The notes under the pieces: model-generated
Told to the model about the DNA's origin: nothing
Databases searched by the model: none
Seen by the model: the letters and a program-made list of their open reading frames with translations, nothing else
IMG/VR virus record: IMGVR_UViG_3300045988_010917
Coordinates: 1 to 39,984 of that record
Strand: one strand, 5' to 3'
DNA: 39,984 bases
Origin: a virus
Made by a program: the position numbers and the translations under genes
Part shown: positions 142-18,366 of the stretch, in pieces
How the letters are laid out: every line of letters starts with the position of its first letter
Position numbering within the stretch: position 1 is the first letter of the stretch

Positions 142-160
142 CGTGAAGGTAAAATATGCC
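121..160. other. Candidate attP core for the serine integrase (imperfect inverted repeat).
   Basis: GGCATAcTTCcccTTC...GAAGgtaaaaTATGCC. The arms GGCATA/TATGCC and CTTC/GAAG are symmetric about roughly 140/141. The repeat directly abuts the integrase stop codon (160-162). Confidence 0.3.
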
Positions 161-1461
161 TAACGCGGCGTTACGAAAAACGCGCCGTTGTCGTCTGCGT
201 CAATCCGCCTGATGAAGCGCGTCCAAAATTCTTTTTTTTCTTCCCGCGAGTATGTATCATATTCGCCCAGCCCATCTTTCAAAGCGTTAAGATCTGTCTC
301 CGGCTTTTCCTCCACGGTTTCCAGTGCCCTTTTCAAACTCGCGTATTCCGTTTTATAATCGTCAAGATCAATCAGATCGTTTAGGTATAGCGTTTTTAGC
401 TTTCCCATTTTTTTTCGTATCGAGTCCGCGCTTTGCGTGGGCTTTTTTTCTGACTTTTTATAGTATCGATTGTTCCGCTCTGCGATTCCTTCCAGCTCGT
501 GTAGCAGGTAGTTTTCCAGCGCATCCTCGCGAATCCTTTTTGTATGCGGGCACGCGGAGTTGTCAAGCATCCGCGTCCGGCATCGGTAGTATGTATATGT
601 CTTTTTTACGGTTTCCGATTGCATCGTTTTACCGCACTCTTTGCAATGCAATATCCCGGAAAACAGATACACGCGATCCGTGTCAACTCCCGCACAGCGT
701 TGTGACCGATGCTGAATAATATCAGTTACAAGGTCAAAGTCCTGCTTGCTTACCAGCGCGGGACAGGCGTTTTCGATTCCGTAAACCTCGCCGATGTAAA
801 GACGGTTACGGAAATAGTTTACATACTTGCTATAAGCCCGGTCAATGCCCCATGTATCAAGCATATATCGCTTTACGGCAAGGACACTTTTTAGCCGGAT
901 GAACGCGGCAAACATATCTCGAGCCGCATCTACCGTGTCGTTATCAATCTGATATTGCCTGTCCTTGATGGCATACCCTAAAGGCGCTTTTGAGCCTGCC
1001 GGTTGTCCTTTTGCCCGTTTCCCATCGTTGATAAATTTGATTCGTTCGCTCGTGCGGTCTGCTTCGTCCTGCGCAACGGAGAGCATGATATTGACTTTCA
1101 AACGCCCTGATGCAGTTCGCGTTTCATAATCTTCTTCCGTCGCCTGCCAGGTCACGCCGTATCGGTCGAGCTGCGTTTGCACATCGTAATACCCCGCCAC
1201 ACTGCGAAACCATCGGTCAAGCTTGATAAATAAGATCGTGTCTACCTTCCCGGCTTTGCAATCGCTCAGCAGCCGCAGGAGCGCCGGACGTTTTTTATAC
1301 GGCTTTCGCGCGGATATTCCCGCGTCCTCATATATGCCCACCACGGTCATTTTGTGTTCTTGGGCATATCTTGTCAGCGCGTCTCTTTGCTCTTGCAATG
1401 ACAGGCCATGCCGTGCCTGTTCTTCGCTCGACACGCGGATATACAAAGCCACCCTCATCAT
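160..1461 (-). CDS. Large serine recombinase (phage integrase).
   Basis: N-terminal resolvase-type catalytic domain (MMRVALYIRVSSEEQ...SLQEQ...). A recombinase domain with a Cys zinc ribbon follows (HCKECG...YYRCR). The C-terminal part is a coiled coil. The start at ATG 1461 follows GGAGGGG and overlaps the upstream stop (ATGA). Confidence 0.9.
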   Translation of the reverse strand: MMRVALYIRVSSEEQARHGLSLQEQRDALTRYAQEHKMTVVGIYEDAGISARKPYKKRPALLRLLSDCKAGKVDTILFIKLDRWFRSVAGYYDVQTQLDRYGVTWQATEEDYETRTASGRLKVNIMLSVAQDEADRTSERIKFINDGKRAKGQPAGSKAPLGYAIKDRQYQIDNDTVDAARDMFAAFIRLKSVLAVKRYMLDTWGIDRAYSKYVNYFRNRLYIGEVYGIENACPALVSKQDFDLVTDIIQHRSQRCAGVDTDRVYLFSGILHCKECGKTMQSETVKKTYTYYRCRTRMLDNSACPHTKRIREDALENYLLHELEGIAERNNRYYKKSEKKPTQSADSIRKKMGKLKTLYLNDLIDLDDYKTEYASLKRALETVEEKPETDLNALKDGLGEYDTYSREEKKEFWTRFIRRIDADDNGAFFVTPR

Positions 1462-1874
1462 AGACCCCTCCAAAAACCGTAATCTGCGCAATGGAGGTCG
1501 ACATACACGCACCACACAGCAAGCATAACCATGATGACAAACATTATAGCAATCACGCAGTTGCGGATGTGCACGCCGCGCCGCATAATCTCGATCATGT
1601 CTTCCTTTGCGTCAACATGACGCTCCAGCTCGTCATTTCGCGCCTGCAAGGTTTCCTCGTTGCGCGTTAACCGTTCGGAAATCCCGAACACTTCGTCCAG
1701 CGATATTCCCAGCGCCTTGCAGATAGGCGCGACAGTGTAGATGGACGGGGCTTTCGACAGTTTTGAGAAAAAATTCTGCACGGTGGACAGCGGAACGCCG
1801 GAAGTGTCGGAAATTTCCTGGTAGGTCAGTTTCAATTCTTCTTTACGGATTTTGCACACCTCTTGGATGTTCAT
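1458..1874 (-). CDS. XRE-family HTH regulator with a C-terminal transmembrane helix.
   Basis: HTH segment LTYQEISDTSGVPLSTVQNFFS. A coiled-coil linker follows. The hydrophobic segment is VIAIMFVIMVMLAVWCVYV. The gene is translationally coupled to the integrase. Confidence 0.75.
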   Translation of the reverse strand: MNIQEVCKIRKEELKLTYQEISDTSGVPLSTVQNFFSKLSKAPSIYTVAPICKALGISLDEVFGISERLTRNEETLQARNDELERHVDAKEDMIEIMRRGVHIRNCVIAIMFVIMVMLAVWCVYVDLHCADYGFWRGL

Positions 1875-6926: not shown

Positions 6927-7568
6927 ATGGCAAGAAACTATGCTGCACTCCCCTATGACTATTTAGAGGAGATGGAAGCACTCAACGATGCAGAGTTCGG
7001 GCGGCTAACGCGGGCATTGCTGGTATACAGCATGACGGGAGAGCAGTTGGCGCTCTGTGGCAATGAGAGATTTTATGCCAAGCGCGTAATGGCGCAGGAG
7101 GATCGGTTTAAGGCGAGCTATGACGACATTTCTACCACCCGGCGCGAGGCGGGCAAGGCCGGAGCCGCCGCAAGATGGCAAAATGGCAAACGCATTTTTG
7201 CTAATGGCAAAAATGGCAAAGCCATAGTTGCTAATGGCAAAAATGGCAATACCGAAACCAATACCGAAACCAAAACCAATACCAATACCCAGCTATCTAA
7301 CGATAGCAAGGGTGATATACGCGCGAAGCGCTTTACCCCGCCCACCTTGGCAGAGGTGCAGTCCTATGTGGCTGAACGCCATTCCCCGGTGGACCCGCAG
7401 GAATTTATTGATTTCTACGAGTCTAAGGGCTGGATGGTCGGCAAGACCCCCATGAAAAACTGGAAAGCGGCTTGTCGAAATGCCGAGAAGTGGGAAAGAT
7501 GGGCAAAGGCTGCCGATCCAAAGGAAAAGACACCGGACAATAGCCTGGCGGAGTTTATGCGATGGTAG
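6927..7568 (+). CDS. Replication-organizer-like protein (hypothetical) with an internal low-complexity repeat linker.
   Basis: The C-terminal RFTPPTLAEVQSYVAERHSPVDPQEFIDFYESKGWMVGKTPMKNWKAACRNAEKW segment is common in phage replication proteins. The central ANGKNGK/TETNTETKTNTNT repeats are encoded by the DNA repeats at 7175-7290. Confidence 0.5.
   Translation: MARNYAALPYDYLEEMEALNDAEFGRLTRALLVYSMTGEQLALCGNERFYAKRVMAQEDRFKASYDDISTTRREAGKAGAAARWQNGKRIFANGKNGKAIVANGKNGNTETNTETKTNTNTQLSNDSKGDIRAKRFTPPTLAEVQSYVAERHSPVDPQEFIDFYESKGWMVGKTPMKNWKAACRNAEKWERWAKAADPKEKTPDNSLAEFMRW
7175..7290. repeat. Iteron-like direct repeats inside the organizer-like gene (candidate origin).
   Basis: The 22-nt unit TTGCTAATGGCAAAAATGGCAA occurs at 7198-7219 and 7228-7249. 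The array carries six ATGGCAA(A/T) copies, each TTTGCtaatgGCAAA being quasi-palindromic. ACCGAAACCAAT-type repeats follow at 7251-7289. Confidence 0.6.
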
Positions 7569-7575
7569 GAGGGCG

Positions 7576-8271
7576 ATGGAAGTGAAGCATTTAGGAGATA
7601 TTTGCAAAATCAACGGCGCAGAAATTGAAATCGTGGATGTTATCACGGGCGGATCGCCGTGCCAAGATTTGAGCATCGCGGGAAAACGCGCAGGATTGGC
7701 GGGAGCAAGGAGCGGCCTGTTTATGGAGCAGGTACGCATCGTAAAAGAAATGAGAGCGGAGGACAAACGGAATGGACGGACAGGTGACATGGTCAGACCT
7801 CGGTTTATGGTCTGGGAAAATGTGCCCGGAGCTTTCAGCAGCAACAAAGGAAAAGACTTCGCGGCAGTCCTCGAAGAGATCATCCGCATCGCAGAGCCGG
7901 AAGCCCCCGATATTGAAGTGCCTGAAAAAGGATGGCCAACTTGGGGGGGCTACCACGATGAAGTGGGAGGACGATGGAGCGTGGCTTGGCGATTGCATGA
8001 CGCGCAACACTGGGGAGTCCCCCAACGCCGCCGTCGCATCTCGGTTGTCGCAGATTTTGGAGGCGACACCGCAGGAGAAATACTCTTTGAGCGCAAAAGC
8101 GTGTCAAGGCATCCTGCGGAGAGCGGAACGGCGCGGGAAAGACTTGCCGACGGTGCTGAAAGCGGTTTTAATCCGGCAGTCGCAAGGAGCCTTACCGCAA
8201 GAGCGGACGGAAGCCCCTGCGCCGACAGAGGCCCCAACATCGTATGCAGTCCGCATCAGGGGGGGCTGTGA
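7576..8271 (+). CDS. DNA (cytosine-5) methyltransferase, first ORF. It carries motifs IV, VI and VIII and has no motif I at its N-terminus.
   Basis: GGSPCQDLS (7648-7674), ENVPG (7816-), QRRRR (8023-8037), then ILFERKSVS...SPCADRGPNIV. The start MEVKHLGDICKING follows AGGAGGG. The stop lies just after a G7 tract (8259-8265). Confidence 0.85.
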   Translation: MEVKHLGDICKINGAEIEIVDVITGGSPCQDLSIAGKRAGLAGARSGLFMEQVRIVKEMRAEDKRNGRTGDMVRPRFMVWENVPGAFSSNKGKDFAAVLEEIIRIAEPEAPDIEVPEKGWPTWGGYHDEVGGRWSVAWRLHDAQHWGVPQRRRRISVVADFGGDTAGEILFERKSVSRHPAESGTARERLADGAESGFNPAVARSLTARADGSPCADRGPNIVCSPHQGGL

Positions 8272-9448
8272 TGGAGGAGGAAAAGGAGCCTTAGTTCAAG
8301 AGGACAAGAGCGGGACGCTCGGCACCGGCAACGACCAGACGATTTTCTGCCTTGTAACACAGCAAGGCGGTGCGGAACTGCGGATGGATGACCGCGCATC
8401 TGCATTGACTGCGGCGGCTGGCATGAGTGGGAACAATCAGCCAGTAGTGGCTATGCCCATCAACGACAAAGCCACCAGATGGCAGGGCGGTGGAGAGAGC
8501 CGCAACCACGATGGAAGCGGAAACGGTCTTGGCATCGGAAAAGAGGGCGACCCGTCTCCTACGCTGACTGCCGGCGACCGACACGGGGTGATGTGTATGA
8601 CACCTTGGGACGCACAGAGCCAGCGCGTATACGATGGTGACGGCGTTTATCCTACGCTCAGTTCCCGTGAAAACAGTGGGCTGAACCGCGAATCTGTGCT
8701 ATGTGCCGGGTTTAAGGCCGGACAGGGCGCACAGGCGGGCGGCATCGGGTACAGTGAGGAAGTATCACCCACGCTGGCGGCGGCGCCCAGCGGGACGAAC
8801 CAAACCCCGGCGGTGGTTGCACTGGATATGTCGCACGCTTGCGATGTCATCCGAGACTGCGGCGAGATCGTTCCGAGTCTGCAAGCAAGGATGGGCACGG
8901 GCGGCAATCAAGTGCCGCTGACGTATCAGCAAACGACAGGTACGCTTTCTCCCGGTGCTCATGCCGGAAGCTACAACGGGCAGGACGCATACAACGATAT
9001 GTTGGTATGCGGGGCCACACCGGATGTGGCACACGCGCTGCGAGCAAAGGCGAACTGCGCTTATCGGGAGGACGCGGAGACATACCCCGTGCAGAACATG
9101 GTGGTGCGCCGCCTGACTCCGATGGAGTGCGAACGGCTGCAAGGTTTCCCGGACGGATGGACTGACATTGGTGAGTGGCGCGACGGCAAGGGAAAAATAC
9201 GCAAGCCAAGCGACAGCCCGCGCTATAAGGCACTGGGCAACTCCATCGCCCTGCCCTTCTGGGATTTCCTGGCAAAGCGTATCAGTGCGCAATATCTTCG
9301 CCCTGTTACGATGGGCAGCCTGTTTGACGGTATCGGCGGATTTCCGCTGGTGTTCGAGCGGCACAACGGCAAGGAAACGGCTCGTTGGGCAAGCGAGATC
9401 GAGGAATTTCCTATCGCCGTGACGAAACTGAGATTTGGGGAGGATTGA
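7772..9448 (+). CDS. DNA (cytosine-5) methyltransferase, second ORF (other frame). It carries the variable/target-recognition region, motifs IX-X, then the permuted motifs I-II at the C-terminus.
   Basis: The MTase-type sequence is clear from about 8243 (YAVRIRGGCDGGGKGALVQ). RRLTPMECERLQGFPDGWT starts at about 9107. YKALGNSIALPF is at 9224-9259. MGSLFDGIGGFPL is at 9311-9349 and SEIEEFP at 9391-9411. The true start of this frame is unknown; the ORF is open from 7772. Confidence 0.8.
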   Translation: MDGQVTWSDLGLWSGKMCPELSAATKEKTSRQSSKRSSASQSRKPPILKCLKKDGQLGGATTMKWEDDGAWLGDCMTRNTGESPNAAVASRLSQILEATPQEKYSLSAKACQGILRRAERRGKDLPTVLKAVLIRQSQGALPQERTEAPAPTEAPTSYAVRIRGGCDGGGKGALVQEDKSGTLGTGNDQTIFCLVTQQGGAELRMDDRASALTAAAGMSGNNQPVVAMPINDKATRWQGGGESRNHDGSGNGLGIGKEGDPSPTLTAGDRHGVMCMTPWDAQSQRVYDGDGVYPTLSSRENSGLNRESVLCAGFKAGQGAQAGGIGYSEEVSPTLAAAPSGTNQTPAVVALDMSHACDVIRDCGEIVPSLQARMGTGGNQVPLTYQQTTGTLSPGAHAGSYNGQDAYNDMLVCGATPDVAHALRAKANCAYREDAETYPVQNMVVRRLTPMECERLQGFPDGWTDIGEWRDGKGKIRKPSDSPRYKALGNSIALPFWDFLAKRISAQYLRPVTMGSLFDGIGGFPLVFERHNGKETARWASEIEEFPIAVTKLRFGED

Positions 9449-14373: not shown

Positions 14374-14586
14374 ATGACCGAATTAAAACGCTGCCCTGAG
14401 TGCGGTGGAGTTGCAACCGTTATCCATATGTACGATACCTACGATAGAGCAGACTTTGGGTGGGATGCCGGTTGTGGGAGATATAGGGCTGGTGATGGCC
14501 TCCACACAAAGGAGATGAAAGTATCTGGGCTGCCCAGCAAAGAAAAAGCAATCGAAGCATGGAACAGGAGGGCTGACAATGGCTGA
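14374..14586 (+). CDS. Lar-family restriction alleviation protein.
   Basis: LKRCPECGG near the N-terminus and KAIEAWNRRA at the C-terminus match the Lar family pattern. Confidence 0.65.
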   Translation: MTELKRCPECGGVATVIHMYDTYDRADFGWDAGCGRYRAGDGLHTKEMKVSGLPSKEKAIEAWNRRADNG

Positions 14587-14926
14587 ATACATCGAGCGCA
14601 CGGAGGAACTCATGCTTGCCATGAACGCCGGGGCGAGGGCAATCGAGAACACAAGGCGCTATCACGGTGCTATTTACACCAAGGATGTGTTCTCGGAGAG
14701 CCCACAGGAAATCCCATACTTGCAGGCCGCCAAAGTGTTGCGGGAAGTAAGCGACGCTCCCGCCGCTGATGTGGCCCCGGTGGTACATGGACAATGGATT
14801 GAGGATCATGATTATCTCAAATGCCCAGAGTGTGGCGTGATGGTTAAGTGGGATTTTACATTTTTCGATATTGGAAATTGGAATTACTGCCCCAACTGCG
14901 GGGCGAAGATGCAGGAGGTGGAGTGA
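14579..14926 (+). CDS. Hypothetical protein, paralog A (MAEYIER...AADVAPVVHG family) with a C-terminal zinc ribbon.
   Basis: It shares a 21-nt identical 5' end (ATGGCTGAATACATCGAGCG...) and the AADVAPVV block with 15187-15498. CPECG...CPNCG are present. Confidence 0.6.
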   Translation: MAEYIERTEELMLAMNAGARAIENTRRYHGAIYTKDVFSESPQEIPYLQAAKVLREVSDAPAADVAPVVHGQWIEDHDYLKCPECGVMVKWDFTFFDIGNWNYCPNCGAKMQEVE

Positions 14927-15187
14927 ATGAACGATATCACAAAGCAACCGTATTCCAAGTGGCTGGAAGAATCCCTGAAAGTTATTTCCGAGTTTAAGCC
15001 AGCGTGCCTGTGCATTGCAGCAACTTCCCCGGATGGTGAGACATTTACCGGATACTATAACGCTGATGCAACAGACAAGGCAGTTTTTGCACACCACATC
15101 CAAAGTGATGTGACAATGGACATTATCCGGGCGAACATCGCAACAATAAAAGTGATGCTTGAAGATTGCGATGCGGAGGGTGAATGA
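14927..15187 (+). CDS. Hypothetical protein.
   Basis: ORF between the two paralogs, abutting both. Confidence 0.55.
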   Translation: MNDITKQPYSKWLEESLKVISEFKPACLCIAATSPDGETFTGYYNADATDKAVFAHHIQSDVTMDIIRANIATIKVMLEDCDAEGE

Positions 15188-15498
15188 TGGCTGAATACAT
15201 CGAGCGAGGCGCGTTGATGCAATTCCCCATCCGTCGCGATCATTACGACAGAAAGAACGGCAACAGGCATTTTATAAACGGCATTGAATCGGTGTTGGAA
15301 TATGCGGAGAATTTGCCAGCTGCTGATGTTGCCCCGGTGGTGCGGTGTAAGGAATGCAAGTGGTTTGCGGATAATAACGACGGGGGGTGGTTTGGTTGCT
15401 GGCTCTTTCAGACCATCCGGATTATCCCAGAAGATGCACCTAAACCTGACGATTTTTGCTCCTACGGCGAACGGAAGGACGGTGAAACCGATGCTTGA
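15187..15498 (+). CDS. Hypothetical protein, paralog B (MAEYIER...AADVAPVV family).
   Basis: See 14579-14926. The start is ATG 15184 or 15187. Confidence 0.6.
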   Translation: MAEYIERGALMQFPIRRDHYDRKNGNRHFINGIESVLEYAENLPAADVAPVVRCKECKWFADNNDGGWFGCWLFQTIRIIPEDAPKPDDFCSYGERKDGETDA

Positions 15499-15921: not shown

Positions 15922-16386
15922 ATGAGCAAAAAGGCGACACTGCCTTATGATGTGCGGTTGGAGTGCATTGCTTATGTGCGTGGGTATCCGCGCCGGGTGC
16001 GGGCGTATCGCGAGGCCCGGGCGGAGATACTGGACGGGACGCACAGCGCTACGGAGGGCATGCCAACTGGATCGGGCGCTGGTAGGCCCGCCGAGAGCAA
16101 GGCGGAGCAGCTTGCAGCCATAGAGCGATGGCCGGAGACGCAGAAGATGCTTGCGGTGGAATACGCCATAGACCGCTGCGGCAGAGATATCGGCAGCGAT
16201 ACAATCCGGCGGCAGCTAATATATGGCATTATGCGCAACTGCCAAGGTAAGCACAAGTATGCCCGTAATCGGATCGTGATCCCGGGGATCAGCGAGAGGA
16301 CATTCAGTCGGAGGAAGGAGCAATTTTTGATGGATGTGGCAAAATACAGTGGTCTTTACACAAAAGATGGCACAAATTCCACTTAA
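15922..16386 (+). CDS. RinA/ArpU-like late-gene transcriptional activator.
   Basis: It is the last gene before the packaging module. The C-terminal ISERTFSRRKEQFLMDVAKYSGL resembles the RinA HTH tail. Confidence 0.55.
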   Translation: MSKKATLPYDVRLECIAYVRGYPRRVRAYREARAEILDGTHSATEGMPTGSGAGRPAESKAEQLAAIERWPETQKMLAVEYAIDRCGRDIGSDTIRRQLIYGIMRNCQGKHKYARNRIVIPGISERTFSRRKEQFLMDVAKYSGLYTKDGTNST

Positions 16387-16391
16387 TGATG

Positions 16392-16400
16392 TGCTACAAT
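16392..16400 (+). promoter_or_regulatory. Possible extended -10 element (TGcTACAAT) at the 5' edge of the structured non-coding region.
   Basis: TG at 16392-16393 and TACAAT at 16395-16400. No good -35 element was seen. Confidence 0.25.
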
Positions 16401-17165
16401 ATGTACAGTGGATGATAGGACATGGTCATCCACGCGATTTCCCAATCATCACTTTTCCTCCCTTCTATCTATGCGCCGCCGGTATTGGGCGCACCTTCTG
16501 GCACCGAAAGGTCATACCGGCACAAACAGCCTGTAGGGAAACCTATGGGCTGTTGTTATATGCCGTGCGCTCGTTGCACCCCACGATCCGGGGCGGGAGG
16601 TCGCACCTCCCACACGGCACAAACAGGACCCTCCGCACCTCTCAACGATGTGGCCCAGGAGGGACATTTAGGGGCGAATGTTCCAAGGCTGGCGAGGCGG
16701 TCTCCAAAACCGCTTGGGTGGGTTCGATTCCCAACCGTCCCTGCCACATGTATGCTACCGCATTGCGGCACCACGGAAGGGTAAGACCGCTACAAGGGGC
16801 TTGCCTGTGCGCTGTATGAAAGCGGCAGGCCGAATAATTATTTGGCTGGCTCCGGCCTATGGATAAAGAAACGGATGCGACCGACATACCGGCGCAGGGC
16901 TGAAAAGTTCCGTGGGATACCGGCATTACTGCGCTCTGAGCGAGTGCCGAGGCGTTCAATGGATGTGGCGTGGTGGCGGCAATCGTATGATTAGGCCGCT
17001 GTGTAAGCAATTCAAACAGAGCGCAATGCCGGGACCTGTGAAAAGACATTGCCCCTCTGCGGGCAGACTGTGTAACCCATGTTTGAGAGCTTCCAGAAGG
17101 CCGCATGGGAGGGGAAAGACTGTTACTGTAGCCAAGGGGTGGGGGCTGGTGACAAACAAGGAGGA
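16400..17165 (+). ncRNA. Large structured non-coding region. It is a candidate ornate phage ncRNA (ROOL/GOLLD-like class) with an embedded tRNA-like gene.
   Basis: About 780 nt has no credible ORF. The region is dense with GC-rich helices, for example 16408-16433 and 16473-77/16488-92, with loop 16479-85 pairing to 16514-20. Further helices are 16527-16552 with a GAAA loop, 16563-67/16613-17, 16595-16611, 16629-34/16658-63 and 16803-16830. CGGCACAAACAG is repeated at 16516 and 16614. Confidence 0.4.
16670..16746 (+). tRNA. tRNA-Trp(CCA)-like gene with non-canonical junctions.
   Basis: The 7-bp acceptor AGGGGCG/CGTCCCT is followed by discriminator G and an encoded CCA. The anticodon arm is GCGGT-CTCCAAA-ACCGC. 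The T-arm is GTGGG-TTCGATT-CCCAA. It is close to the E. coli tRNA-Trp layout. However, the D-stem is poor and there is one extra nt at both the 7/8-10 and 65/66 junctions. Confidence 0.55.
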
Positions 17166-17169
17166 AAGC

Positions 17170-18366
17170 ATGGAAATCACAAAACGGCGGCTTGCGGATA
17201 TTGTGCCGTATGCCGGCAACGCAAAAAAGCATGATAAACGGCAAATCAACAATGTTGCGGAGAGCATCAAGCAGTACGGCTTTGTACAGCCGATTGTGAT
17301 TGACCGCGACGGCGTGATTGTAATCGGCCACTGCCGCGCTATGGCGGCAAAAAAGCTGGGCATGGAAGAAGTGCCCTGTGTCTGCGTGGACGATCTGACA
17401 CCGGAGCAGGTAAACGCCCTGCGGCTGGTGGATAACAAGAGTAACGAGAGCGAATGGGACTTTGACCTGCTGGCTGATGAACTGCCGGGGCTTGACTTGT
17501 CTGCTTTTGACTTTGATTGGGGTCTGCGTGATGAACTCGACACGTCAGTGGTAGAGGACAACTACGATCCCGTTTTACCGGCAGAGCCGAAGAGCAAACT
17601 GGGCGATGTGTACCAGCTTGGAGACCATCGCCTTATGTGCGGAGACAGCACGTCTTTGACAGATGTACAGAAGCTCGTGGGGGGGGCACAAATGGATTTG
17701 CTGCTCACAGACCCCCCGTACAATGTGGACTATCAGGGCACCGCCGGGAAGATTAAGAACGACAATATGGAGGATGCGGCCTTCAGGCGTTTCCTGACGG
17801 ATGCATTCTCCAATGCGGCGATGGTCATGAAGCCCGGTGCTCCGTTCTACATCTGGCACGCAGACAACAGTGAAGGGTATAACTTTCGCGGTGCGTGCAG
17901 AGATGCGATGCTGCGTGTCAGGCAGTGCCTGATCTGGGTGAAGAACTCCCTTGTGATGGGGAGACAGGATTTCCAGTGGAAACATGAGCCTTGCCTGTAT
18001 GGTGAGAGCGAGATTGAAGAGGAAGCGCACGAACCTTGCCTGTACGGATGGACGGAAGGCAAGAAGCATTATTTCTTCAAGAACCGCAGGCAGACAACCG
18101 TGTTGAATTTTGATAAGCCTGTCAAATCTGCGGAGCATCCGACCATGAAGCCGATTAAGCTGTTTGATTACCAGATGCAGTGCTCCAGTAAGCCGGGGGA
18201 AAATGTTCTCGACCTGTTTGCTGGGTCCGGCACAACGATCATGGCGGCGGAGCAGAATGGCAGACACGCTTTCTGCATGGAGTACGATCCGAAGTATGCG
18301 GATGTCATTATTGATCGATGGGAAAAGTTTACCGGAGAAAAGGCGGTGCTTCTGAATGACGATTGA
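17170..18366 (+). CDS. ParB-like nuclease domain fused to an N6-adenine/N4-cytosine DNA methyltransferase.
   Basis: The ParB-like N-terminus is IVPYAGNAKKHDKRQINNVAESIKQYGFVQPIVID...GHCR. The DPPY motif is LLLTDPPYNVDY. The SAM motif is VLDLFAGSGTT. ATG 17170 follows AAGGAGGAAAG. Confidence 0.9.
   Translation: MEITKRRLADIVPYAGNAKKHDKRQINNVAESIKQYGFVQPIVIDRDGVIVIGHCRAMAAKKLGMEEVPCVCVDDLTPEQVNALRLVDNKSNESEWDFDLLADELPGLDLSAFDFDWGLRDELDTSVVEDNYDPVLPAEPKSKLGDVYQLGDHRLMCGDSTSLTDVQKLVGGAQMDLLLTDPPYNVDYQGTAGKIKNDNMEDAAFRRFLTDAFSNAAMVMKPGAPFYIWHADNSEGYNFRGACRDAMLRVRQCLIWVKNSLVMGRQDFQWKHEPCLYGESEIEEEAHEPCLYGWTEGKKHYFFKNRRQTTVLNFDKPVKSAEHPTMKPIKLFDYQMQCSSKPGENVLDLFAGSGTTIMAAEQNGRHAFCMEYDPKYADVIIDRWEKFTGEKAVLLNDD

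What the first reader, a model, noticed from the sequence alone, without database searches (positions are those of the whole stretch)
16390..17169. About 780-nt ORF-free, heavily structured region between the late activator and the packaging genes: candidate large ornate phage ncRNA (ROOL/GOLLD-like) with an embedded tRNA
The genome is otherwise packed gene-to-gene, yet this stretch has no credible coding potential. The track ORFs here are Arg/Cys-rich nonsense, including the upstream extension of the ParB-MTase ORF.

Instead it contains many GC-rich helices:
- 16408-16433 (8 bp);
- a pseudoknot-like arrangement, 16473-77/16488-92, whose loop CCGGTAT (16479-85) pairs with ATACCGG (16514-20);
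- 16527-16552, closed by a GAAA tetraloop;
- ACC-GAAA-GGT at 16503-16512;
- 16563-67/16613-17, enclosing GGGAGG-TCGCA-CCTCCC;
- 16629-34/16658-63, abutting the tRNA;
- 16803-16830;
- GCAATG...CATTGC at 17024-17051.

Short motifs also recur: CGGCACAAACAG twice and ATACCGGC three times. A perfect AT palindrome AATAATTATT lies at 16833-16842.

Large ornate RNAs of the GOLLD and ROOL classes are known to reside in prophages of Firmicutes and to be adjacent to, or to contain, tRNA genes. That matches this architecture. If the region fits neither model, it would be a new large phage RNA.
Basis: partly seen in the sequence, partly recalled or inferred. Interest (0 to 1): 0.7.

Follow-up and report, generated by a model that had tools for sequence, protein, structure and literature searches.

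The report
New structured RNA beside phage tRNAs
The gene-free stretch is real non-coding RNA territory, and its conserved heart is a roughly 295-nt pseudoknotted RNA that always follows a tRNA or tRNA-like element in over 100 gut phage contigs, matches no Rfam family (including GOLLD and ROOL), and has no known function.

Summary
Window 16387-17169 is non-coding. It lies between a phage transcriptional-activator gene and a ParB-methylase/terminase block. It is not one fixed 780-nt RNA but a chain of modules that assort independently in related phages:
- a promoter-like TGCTACAAT;
- leader hairpins;
- an armless tRNA-like cloverleaf;
- an abiF-motif-like hairpin;
- an atypical tRNA-Trp;
- a ~295-nt core (16747-17041);
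- a 3' hairpin module.

Only the core is broadly conserved. One 18-mer from it hit at least 119 IMG/VR contigs, and a covariance model finds exactly one copy per locus (83-146 bits; 138 bits in the window).

Covariation supports a hairpin whose loop forms a pseudoknot, with at least seven compensated sequence versions. It also supports a 20-25 bp long-range helix (24 strand variants) and an inner hairpin. A 43-nt three-way junction is invariant. G·U pairs outnumber A·C 416 to 78, which marks the + strand as the RNA strand.

No Rfam 15 family matches at E<=10, so it is not GOLLD or ROOL. It shares their niche: phage tRNA arrays.

Bacterial-genome hits are almost all Oscillospiraceae/Eubacteriales MAGs. 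Function is unknown. I favour a stable phage RNA excised from, or fused to, a tRNA-like handle.

The parts
16392..16400 (+). Extended -10 promoter-like TGCTACAAT, 6 nt after the activator gene's stop codon. This is the inferred start of the late-operon leader transcript.
   Evidence: Read from the sequence. The surrounding ATGATGTGCTACAATAGGTACAG is conserved in 7 related loci; the window differs at one base just after the motif. The two-hexamer scan did not call it because there is no -35. Inferred, not shown.
16408..16552 (+). Leader module U1. It contains hairpin 16408-16433, hairpin 16473-77/16488-92 with a possible pairing of 16478-85 to 16514-21, ACC-GAAA-GGT at 16503-12, and hairpin 16527-16552 with a GAAA loop.
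   Evidence: About 90% identical in 5 loci whose neighbouring activator ORF is only ~71% identical. The GNRA hairpin is replaced by CCCG-GGAA-CGGG in L053 and L083. 16527-52 shows U-A to C-G changes in L083. The first two hairpins show no double changes.
16562..16619 (+). Module U2, an armless tRNA-like cloverleaf. It has an acceptor-like stem GCCGTG/CACGGC followed by A, an arm CCCC[ACGATCC]GGGG, and an arm GGGAGG[TCGCA]CCTCCC.
   Evidence: All three stems are compensated in L001, L074, L094 and L018: GCCGCAT/ATGCGGC, GCCC/GGGC, and GAGAGG/CCTCTC or GGCGGG/CCCGCC. No Rfam hit.
16629..16664 (+). abiF-motif-like hairpin, ending 5 nt before the tRNA.
   Evidence: Rfam RF03085 scores 19.1 bits (gathering score 37, E 2.3), with an identical 11-nt loop. 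There are 14 sequence variants in 21 loci, and the outer stem covaries.
16670..16746 (+). Atypical tRNA-Trp(CCA) with an encoded CCA end and a degenerate D stem.
   Evidence: Called by ARAGORN. It is below the Rfam tRNA gathering score; the best clan hit is tRNA-Sec at 36.8 bits. ARAGORN calls a tRNA-Trp(cca) directly upstream of the element in 10 loci, window included.
16747..17041 (+). Core: the conserved ~295-nt pseudoknotted RNA. This is the family-defining unit.
   Evidence: Conservation profile. At least 119 IMG/VR contigs carry it. The CM for its central 124 positions scores 138.4 bits, E 1e-30, at 16799-16919, with one copy in the window. Structure counts: 90.7% of cells paired versus about 36% with slid partners, and 36 of 61 pairs with double changes.
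16803..16830 (+). Hairpin Pc (GCCTGT.CGC / GCG.GCAGGC) with a 9-nt loop.
   Evidence: 91-93% of cells paired, and 7 of 9 pairs show double changes.
16814..16889 (+). Pseudoknot: Pc loop 16814-16818 (GUAUG) pairs with the loop of the junction hairpin, 16885-16889 (CAUAC).
   Evidence: 97% paired, and 4 of 5 pairs covary on a raw MAFFT alignment. Other versions: GUACG/CGUAC, GUGCA/UGCAC, CGCACA/UGUGCG, CUGCAU/AUGCAG, and CCGAA/UUCGG (L122) and AACUC/GAGUU (L127).
16845..16856 (+). Hairpin B1 (GCUG[GCUC]CGGC) with conserved CUGG..CCGG.
   Evidence: 98% paired. The outer pairs are compensated in divergent members: GUCU/AGAC in L122 and CCUG/CGGG in L134.
16871..16913 (+). Invariant three-way junction: ACGGA [UGCG(A)CCG-ACAUAC-CGGCGCA] GG [GCU-GAAA-AGU] UCCGU.
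   Evidence: All stem positions are unchanged or nearly so across the alignment; only the 6-nt pseudoknot loop varies, and part of this stretch was fixed by the search pattern. The only variant found by a forced-mismatch scan turns a G·U into A-U. The pairing is predicted but cannot be tested by covariation.
16914..17037 (+). Long-range interrupted helix closing the 3' domain: 16914-16 with 17035-37, 16920-26 with 17026-32, and 16930-38 with 17017-25.
   Evidence: It appears in unconstrained MFE folds of most members. Duplex energy of the variable parts is -25.3 kcal/mol for cognate strands versus -11.9 for non-cognate strands, with 24 distinct strand variants. All 7 counted pairs show double changes.
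16975..17000 (+). Inner hairpin I1/I2 (GGCGGC-AAUC[GUAU]GAUU-AG-GCCGCU), flanked by conserved GGnGUGG and GUGUARG.
   Evidence: 86% paired, and 6 of 8 pairs show double changes. Variants include GACGC/GCGUC, AACGCC/GGCGUU and UACGCC/GGCGUA.
17042..17169 (+). 3' module: hairpin 17051-17065, then stem GTTAC 17122-26 / GTGAC 17149-53 enclosing AGCC..GGCT with a G-rich loop, then RBS GGAGG 17160-64 before the ATG at 17170.
   Evidence: 92-98% identical in about 12 loci and partly conserved in more. The stem is GCTAT/GTAGC in L004. No terminator-like T-run follows on the + strand.

Best explanation
The region is the non-coding leader of the phage's late (packaging) operon, built as a degenerate tRNA array.

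Its functional centre is a previously uncatalogued ~295-nt RNA (16747-17041, + strand). This RNA folds into a compact pseudoknotted structure around an invariant three-way junction. It is always encoded immediately 3' of an acceptor-stem-NCCA terminus, either a real tRNA or a tRNA mimic.

Proposed mechanism:
1. Transcription starts at the promoter-like TGCTACAAT just downstream of the activator gene.
2. The tRNA-like units serve as handles for host tRNA-processing enzymes: RNase P at their 5' ends, and 3' maturation at or after the CCA.
3. The large RNA is therefore either cut out or kept as a tRNA-RNA chimera, and accumulates as a stable RNA during late infection.
4. It acts as an RNA in trans, in the manner proposed for GOLLD and ROOL.

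Shown: non-coding status, conservation, strand, helices and pseudoknot, tRNA adjacency, absence from Rfam.
Inferred: promoter, processing route, trans action.
Unknown: biochemical role.
For: - Family breadth: at least 119 IMG/VR contigs, 70 clusters at 95% identity, and one copy per locus at 83-146 bits.
- Structure on an alignment not fitted to it: 90.7% of cells paired versus 80.4% in shuffles and about 36% with slid partners; 36 of 61 pairs with double changes; covariation score 0.307 versus 0.142; 0 of 500 shuffles reach it. The central region gives 97.5% paired.
- Pseudoknot with at least 7 compensated versions.
- Long helix: cognate -25.3 versus non-cognate -11.9 kcal/mol.
- Strand: 416 G·U cells versus 78 A·C cells.
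- Not coding: no Pfam hit, and length variation of 117-160 nt with no mod-3 bias.
- tRNA adjacency. 46 loci have a canonical tRNA of varied identity ending exactly at the element's 5' end. Of 112 loci with enough flank, 75 carry a T-loop-like motif just upstream and 17 carry a 92-nt mimic ending ...ATGCCGnACCA; most of the remaining 20 end in a tRNA-like NCCA terminus by eye.
- Relatives sit inside tRNA arrays, often with a tRNA directly downstream.
- No fixed neighbouring protein, and at least two terminase types.
- Context in the window: activator upstream; ParB-methylase, small and large terminase, and portal downstream.
Against: - There are no expression data, so transcript ends, stability and processing are inferred.
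- The invariant junction carries no covariation, so its pairing is only predicted.
- The 5' hairpins P1 and P2 are only 75-79% paired on the MAFFT alignment, and the junction inside the 3' domain is unresolved.
- An encoded CCA is known (my own knowledge of Bacillus RNase Z) to inhibit RNase Z in some Firmicutes, so how the tRNA/RNA junction is cut, if at all, is unclear.
- In the window no terminator follows the element, so a cis role on the downstream operon is not excluded.
- The family was collected with one exact 18-mer, so its true diversity is undersampled and conservation of the core is partly forced.
Confidence: 0.7

Rival explanations
1. The element is a cis-acting leader of the late operon. 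It would work as an antitermination, attenuation or riboswitch-like element, or as an mRNA-processing element controlling ParB-methylase and terminase expression.
For: In the window it lies in the 5' leader of the packaging operon with no terminator after it. In about 23 loci the same ParB-methylase gene follows, and terminase genes are frequent neighbours. The invariant junction could be a ligand- or protein-binding site.
Against: The downstream features are inconsistent: another tRNA within 260 nt in 26 loci, an HU-like gene, small ORFs, two different terminase types, and an integrase upstream in 27 loci. In the gathering-score scans of 12 divergent loci the element sits in the middle of tRNA arrays. 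The constant partner is the upstream tRNA-like end, not a downstream gene.
Confidence: 0.12
2. The element is a self-processing ribozyme that defines the 3' end of the upstream tRNA. It would be a large functional analogue of the HDV-like theta ribozymes that abut tRNAs in gut phages.
For: The element starts immediately after the CCA in the window, and canonical tRNAs called by ARAGORN end 145-178 nt upstream of the core 18-mer. A 43-nt junction is invariant amid divergent helices, as in catalytic cores. Theta ribozymes set a precedent for RNAs abutting tRNA 3' ends in gut phages (PMC10879173).
Against: No HDV-like, hatchet or other ribozyme model hits at E<=10. A 295-nt RNA is costly for a trailer-removal task that about 60 nt can do. 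Many upstream partners are non-canonical tRNA mimics unlikely to decode, which suggests the tRNA serves the RNA rather than the reverse. Theta ribozymes mostly follow CCA-less tRNAs, whereas here the CCA is encoded.
Confidence: 0.1
3. The element is a highly diverged GOLLD or ROOL RNA.
For: It shares their niche, phage tRNA islands (PMC12286853). Like GOLLD it has a conserved 3' part, a variable 5' part, and a covalently adjacent tRNA.
Against: No hit to either model at gathering score or at E<=10 with relaxed filters on short inputs, for two divergent members and 12 loci. The conserved unit is about 295 nt, against about 580 nt for ROOL and over 800 nt for GOLLD.
Confidence: 0.03
4. The conservation reflects a DNA-level element (cos or pac site, attP, origin or operator cluster) or a decayed coding remnant, not an RNA.
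For: The location next to the terminase genes fits a packaging site. In 27 loci a tyrosine integrase lies about 1.6 kb upstream. The antisense frame has no stop codon across the core in the window.
Against: Helices are kept by compensatory changes while their sequences diverge completely. G·U exceeds A·C by 416 to 78, which has no meaning for duplex DNA. The element occurs with different terminase types. ORFs have no Pfam family, and indels ignore the reading frame.
Confidence: 0.02

Closest known systems
GOLLD RNA (Rfam RF01998)
   Same: Large structured RNA of phages and prophages, encoded near or fused to tRNAs. It has a conserved 3' region and a variable 5' region that can hold tRNAs. Its function is unknown (PMC12286853).
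   Different: No covariance-model match. The conserved unit here is about 295 nt rather than over 800 nt. The hosts seen here are mostly gut Oscillospiraceae/Eubacteriales MAGs. Oligomeric cage formation is untested.
ROOL RNA (Rfam RF03087)
   Same: Pseudoknotted large RNA of Firmicutes phages and prophages, often beside tRNA islands. It has no protein partner and an unknown function (PMC5737381, PMC12286853).
   Different: No covariance-model match. This element is about half the size. It has a long invariant core, whereas ROOL has few highly conserved nucleotides (PMC5737381).
Theta (minimal HDV-like) ribozymes of gut phages
   Same: RNA elements of gut Caudoviricetes placed within a few nucleotides of tRNA 3' ends (PMC10879173).
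   Different: Theta ribozymes are small HDV-like folds, mostly follow CCA-less tRNAs, and occur mostly in Bacteroidota phages. This element is about 295 nt, matches no HDV-like model, and follows an encoded CCA.
abiF motif / RCd22 antitoxin RNA (RF03085). This comparison applies only to the hairpin at 16629-16664.
   Same: The 11-nt loop CUCUCAACGAU is identical and the two-tier stem is the same. The known motif is an RNA that binds and neutralises the AbiF toxin (PMC12373285).
   Different: The score of 19.1 bits is below the gathering score of 37. No Abi_2 gene was found among the window ORFs scanned. Here the hairpin punctuates tRNA-like modules.

Membership tests
GOLLD (RF01998) | Match to the family covariance model at or near its gathering score | tested here: not met
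   No hit in the window at gathering score. None at E<=10 on 16200-17400, on 16735-17060, or on L031 1855-2215. None in 12 related loci.
GOLLD (RF01998) | Size over about 800 nt, with a conserved 3' half and a variable 5' half | tested here: not met
   The conserved unit is about 295 nt. The layout of a variable 5' part plus a tRNA is only analogous.
GOLLD / ROOL | Encoded in phages or prophages, near tRNA genes | tested here: met
   tRNA at 16670-16746. tRNA arrays in related loci. Phage genes on both sides.
GOLLD / ROOL | RNA-only homo-oligomeric nanocage | not testable with these tools
   This needs native gels, SEC or cryo-EM. The AU palindrome that might mediate dimerisation occurs in only 12 of 66 members.
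ROOL (RF03087) | [quoted passage not shown] | tested here: not met
   No hit. About 295 nt, with one demonstrated pseudoknot.
tRNA (RF00005), applied to 16670-16746 | Cloverleaf scoring above the gathering score | tested here: inconclusive
   ARAGORN calls tRNA-Trp(cca). Rfam gives no tRNA hit at gathering score, and the best clan member is tRNA-Sec at 36.8 bits against a gathering score of 47. By eye the D stem is degenerate.
abiF motif (RF03085), applied to 16629-16664 | Covariance-model score of at least 37 bits | tested here: not met
   19.1 bits, E 2.3. Loci holding the hairpin give no abiF hit at gathering score.
abiF motif (RF03085) | Located upstream of an abiF (Abi_2) toxin gene | tested here: inconclusive
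   No Abi_2 domain in the 18 window ORFs scanned. Not every ORF was scanned.
HDV-like / theta ribozymes | Nested double-pseudoknot HDV fold detected by a model or descriptor | tested here: not met
   No HDV-family Rfam hit at E<=10. No P1 partner for the first nucleotides was found by eye.
RNase P RNA / T-box (tRNA-binding RNAs considered because of GGU/UGG motifs) | Match to the family covariance models | tested here: not met
   No hit at E<=10. The order of conserved blocks does not fit RNase P (my own knowledge of the P4 layout).

The most novel reading that the evidence does not exclude
This is a third, structurally unrelated class of large phage tRNA-array RNA, after GOLLD and ROOL. Its invariant 43-nt three-way junction and pseudoknot would form an active site or an assembly interface. 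Under this reading it is either a new ribozyme acting on the covalently attached tRNA-CCA end, or an RNA-only complex that carries a tRNA mimic. The neighbouring abiF-like hairpin would be a phage decoy for a host AbiF toxin.
Probability: 0.2. Interest if true: 0.9.

Novelty: new variant of a known kind. Interest (0 to 1): 0.72.

Why it matters
GOLLD and ROOL show that phages invest in large, elaborately folded RNAs placed in tRNA islands, and nobody yet knows why. A third family in the same niche is unrelated in sequence and fold, half the size, and has an unusually invariant core and a strict fusion to an acceptor-stem-CCA end. This gives an independent handle on that question.

What the three share (tRNA linkage, late expression context) is likely to be the functional clue. 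The small size makes the element tractable for cryo-EM, self-cleavage assays and phage genetics. It also flags that tRNA mimics in gut phages may be processing handles or cargo rather than decoders.

Tried and rejected
- RNAalifold on the raw MAFFT alignment recovered only part of the structure, because the variable helices are misaligned.
- An all-against-all mutual-information scan was swamped by subfamily (phylogenetic) correlations. A diagonal-helix scan was noisy.
- Per-sequence and per-subfamily folds agree on the closing helix and inner hairpin, but not on the internal junction of the 3' domain or on the 5' hairpins.
- The AU palindrome as a family-wide dimerisation site is rejected: 12 of 66 members, with mean longest palindrome 5.2 versus 4.0 in shuffles.
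- A forced-mismatch scan for variants of the invariant GAAA hairpin found only one true variant.
- A search for a constant protein partner found none.
- RNase P, T-box, tmRNA, group I/II intron and HDV/hatchet resemblances were considered. None has model support.
- No held paper contains the core sequence strings. The 2023 phage csRNA catalogue has motifs of at most 151 nt and no searchable supplement here, so fragments of this RNA could be listed there unrecognised.
- Eight of the 14 genome-scan hits were chance matches.

Full report
**What is at the coordinates.**
Window 16387-17169 lies between a 154-aa ORF and a block of packaging genes. The ORF (15922-16386) matches PHROG 248, 'transcriptional activator', at E 8e-5. 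Downstream come a ParB_N + N6/N4 methylase gene (17170-18366), a small terminase, a large terminase and a portal gene.

ORFs that cross the stretch have no Pfam family. ARAGORN finds a single tRNA-Trp(cca) at 16670-16746. That tRNA is atypical: Rfam reports no tRNA at gathering score anywhere in the window, and the best clan match is tRNA-Sec at 36.8 bits.

Single-sequence folding is only modestly better than shuffles, and on both strands (z -2.65 and -2.20). The case therefore has to rest on comparison with related sequences.

**Conservation.**
Two uncultured human-gut phage records share parts of the region. These fall into 70 clusters at 95% identity.

The conservation profile shows that only about 16714-17035 is broadly conserved. 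The 280 nt upstream of the tRNA are not.

A scan of one genome per bacterial species found six true copies. Five are in Oscillospiraceae, Lawsonibacter, Oscillibacter and Eubacteriales MAGs. One is in a bin labelled Staphylococcaceae. The other eight hits were chance.

**Structure of the core (16747-17041, + strand).**
I named helices from comparison by eye and from per-sequence folds, and then counted them on a MAFFT alignment that was not fitted to any structure:
- 90.7% of cells form standard pairs, against 80.4% in column shuffles and about 36% when partners are slid by one to three columns.
- 36 of 61 pairs have changes on both sides.
- The covariation score is 0.307 against 0.142, reached by 0 of 500 shuffles.

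The best-supported elements are these.
- *Hairpin Pc (16803-16830).*
- *A pseudoknot* between the Pc loop (16814-18) and the loop of a junction hairpin (16885-89). It is 97% paired, and four of its five pairs covary. It exists in at least seven sequence versions: GUAUG/CAUAC, GUACG/CGUAC, GUGCA/UGCAC, CGCACA/UGUGCG, CUGCAU/AUGCAG, CCGAA/UUCGG and AACUC/GAGUU.
- *A long interrupted helix* joining 16914-16938 to 17017-17037 and closing the 3' domain. Its sequence differs completely between subfamilies, with 24 distinct strand variants. Cognate strands pair far better than non-cognate ones, at -25.3 versus -11.9 kcal/mol for the variable part.
- *An inner hairpin (16975-17000)*, with 6 of 8 pairs compensated.

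Between these lies a 43-nt three-way junction (16871-16913) with a GAAA tetraloop. All its stem positions are essentially invariant across the alignment; only the 6-nt pseudoknot loop varies. Part of this stretch was fixed by the search pattern. A scan forcing a mismatch found one variant, a G·U changed to A-U. Its pairing is therefore predicted but not tested.

G·U cells outnumber A·C cells 416 to 78, which identifies the + strand as the RNA strand. The 3'-domain length varies from 117 to 160 nt with no preference for multiples of three.

A covariance model of the central 124 positions scores 138.4 bits (E 1e-30) at 16799-16919. It finds one copy per locus, at 83-146 bits for full-length matches, in 99 related loci. 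It scores divergent MAG copies at 65-144 bits and gives nothing for the chance pattern hits.

**Context.**
The element always begins right after an acceptor-stem-NCCA terminus.
- In 46 loci this is a canonical tRNA of varied identity (Gly, Trp, Met, Ser and others) that ends 145-178 nt upstream of the core 18-mer. In the window the element starts on the base after the CCA.
- Of 112 loci with enough flanking sequence, 75 show a T-loop-like motif just upstream.
- 17 carry a 92-nt mimic with a 7-bp acceptor-like stem and ACCA tail that neither ARAGORN nor Rfam recognises.
- Most of the remaining 20 end in a tRNA-like NCCA terminus by eye.

In divergent loci the element sits inside tRNA arrays, often with another tRNA directly downstream. 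No protein family is a constant neighbour. Two terminase types, a ParB-methylase, an XRE regulator, an HU-like protein and a tyrosine integrase each occur in subsets.

**The rest of the flagged region.**
Upstream of the tRNA the window carries modules that assort independently in relatives:
- an extended -10-like TGCTACAAT (16392-16400) whose surrounding sequence is conserved in seven relatives;
- leader hairpins, two of which have compensated variants;
- a 58-nt armless tRNA-like cloverleaf (16562-16619) whose three stems are all compensated in L001, L074, L094 and L018;
- a hairpin (16629-16664) that resembles the abiF motif. It has an identical 11-nt loop but scores only 19.1 bits against a gathering score of 37. 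Its outer stem covaries over 14 variants.

The 3' module (17042-17169) has a compensated stem with a G-rich loop just before the ribosome-binding site. The 17023-17052 hairpin is not, and the region is a chain of modules rather than one 780-nt RNA.

**Comparison with known families.**
No Rfam 15 family matches the core at E<=10, whether in the window or in a divergent homologue, and none matches 12 related loci at gathering score. Membership of GOLLD, ROOL, HDV-like ribozymes, RNase P or T-box is therefore not met.

The niche is that of GOLLD and ROOL, which are phage or prophage RNAs near tRNA islands with unknown function (PMC12286853, PMC5737381). Theta ribozymes show that gut phages also place small catalytic RNAs against tRNA 3' ends (PMC10879173).

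No held paper contains the core sequence. A 2023 catalogue of short phage RNA motifs could contain unrecognised fragments of it.

**Most likely mechanism.**
I favour a stable, trans-acting phage RNA made from the late-operon leader. The tRNA-like units would act as processing handles or remain as a covalent appendage.

The structure, strand, conservation and tRNA linkage are shown. The promoter, the processing route and the trans action are inferred. The biochemical role is unknown.

Rivals are a cis-regulatory leader, a tRNA-3'-end-processing ribozyme, a diverged GOLLD or ROOL, and a DNA-level site. The last two are poorly compatible with the data.

**Verdict.**
This is a genuine and apparently uncatalogued family of structured phage RNA. 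It is a new variant of the 'large RNA in phage tRNA islands' kind. It is worth experimental follow-up.

Noticed in passing
window 16629-16664; also L001, L014, L018, L032, L037, L038 and others: This hairpin resembles the abiF antitoxin-RNA motif: its 11-nt loop is identical to the Rfam consensus, but it scores below threshold. Its outer stem covaries. It always sits a few nucleotides before a tRNA-like module, and no Abi_2 gene was found among the ORFs scanned. It could be a phage decoy against host AbiF.
   Followed up: partly
window 16562-16619: A 58-nt armless tRNA-like cloverleaf with an acceptor-like stem plus A and two arms. All three stems are compensated in related phages. No Rfam or ARAGORN call.
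   Followed up: partly
L004 4253-4342; L097 and 15 other loci: A 92-nt tRNA mimic (GCGGCATAGG...ATGCCGT-A-CCA) with a 7-bp acceptor-like stem but no T-loop consensus. It replaces the tRNA upstream of the core RNA.
   Followed up: partly
window 16387-16623 versus 15922-16386: The non-coding leader is about 90% identical in five loci where the adjacent activator gene is only about 71% identical. This points to selection on the leader or to mosaic exchange.
   Followed up: partly
window 16670-16746: ARAGORN calls this tRNA-Trp(cca), but it falls below Rfam's tRNA gathering score and has a degenerate D stem. It may be a processing handle rather than a decoding tRNA.
   Followed up: partly
window 17122-17153: A stem GTTAC/GTGAC (GCTAT/GTAGC in a relative) with a G-rich loop lies immediately upstream of the ribosome-binding site of the ParB-methylase gene. 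It may be a translational control hairpin.
   Followed up: no
window 7480-8271 and 7772-9448: A C5 cytosine DNA methylase is split across two overlapping ORFs, each matching a different part of the Pfam model. This could be a frameshift, a sequencing error or programmed recoding.
   Followed up: no
window 14579-14926 and 15184-15498: Two paralogous small Cys-rich ORFs share MAEYIER...PAADVAPVV. Relatives of this family recur about 2 kb upstream of the RNA in 30 loci.
   Followed up: no
window 160-1515 (-): A large serine recombinase (Resolvase plus Zn_ribbon_recom domains) lies at the left end, which indicates a temperate phage.
   Followed up: no
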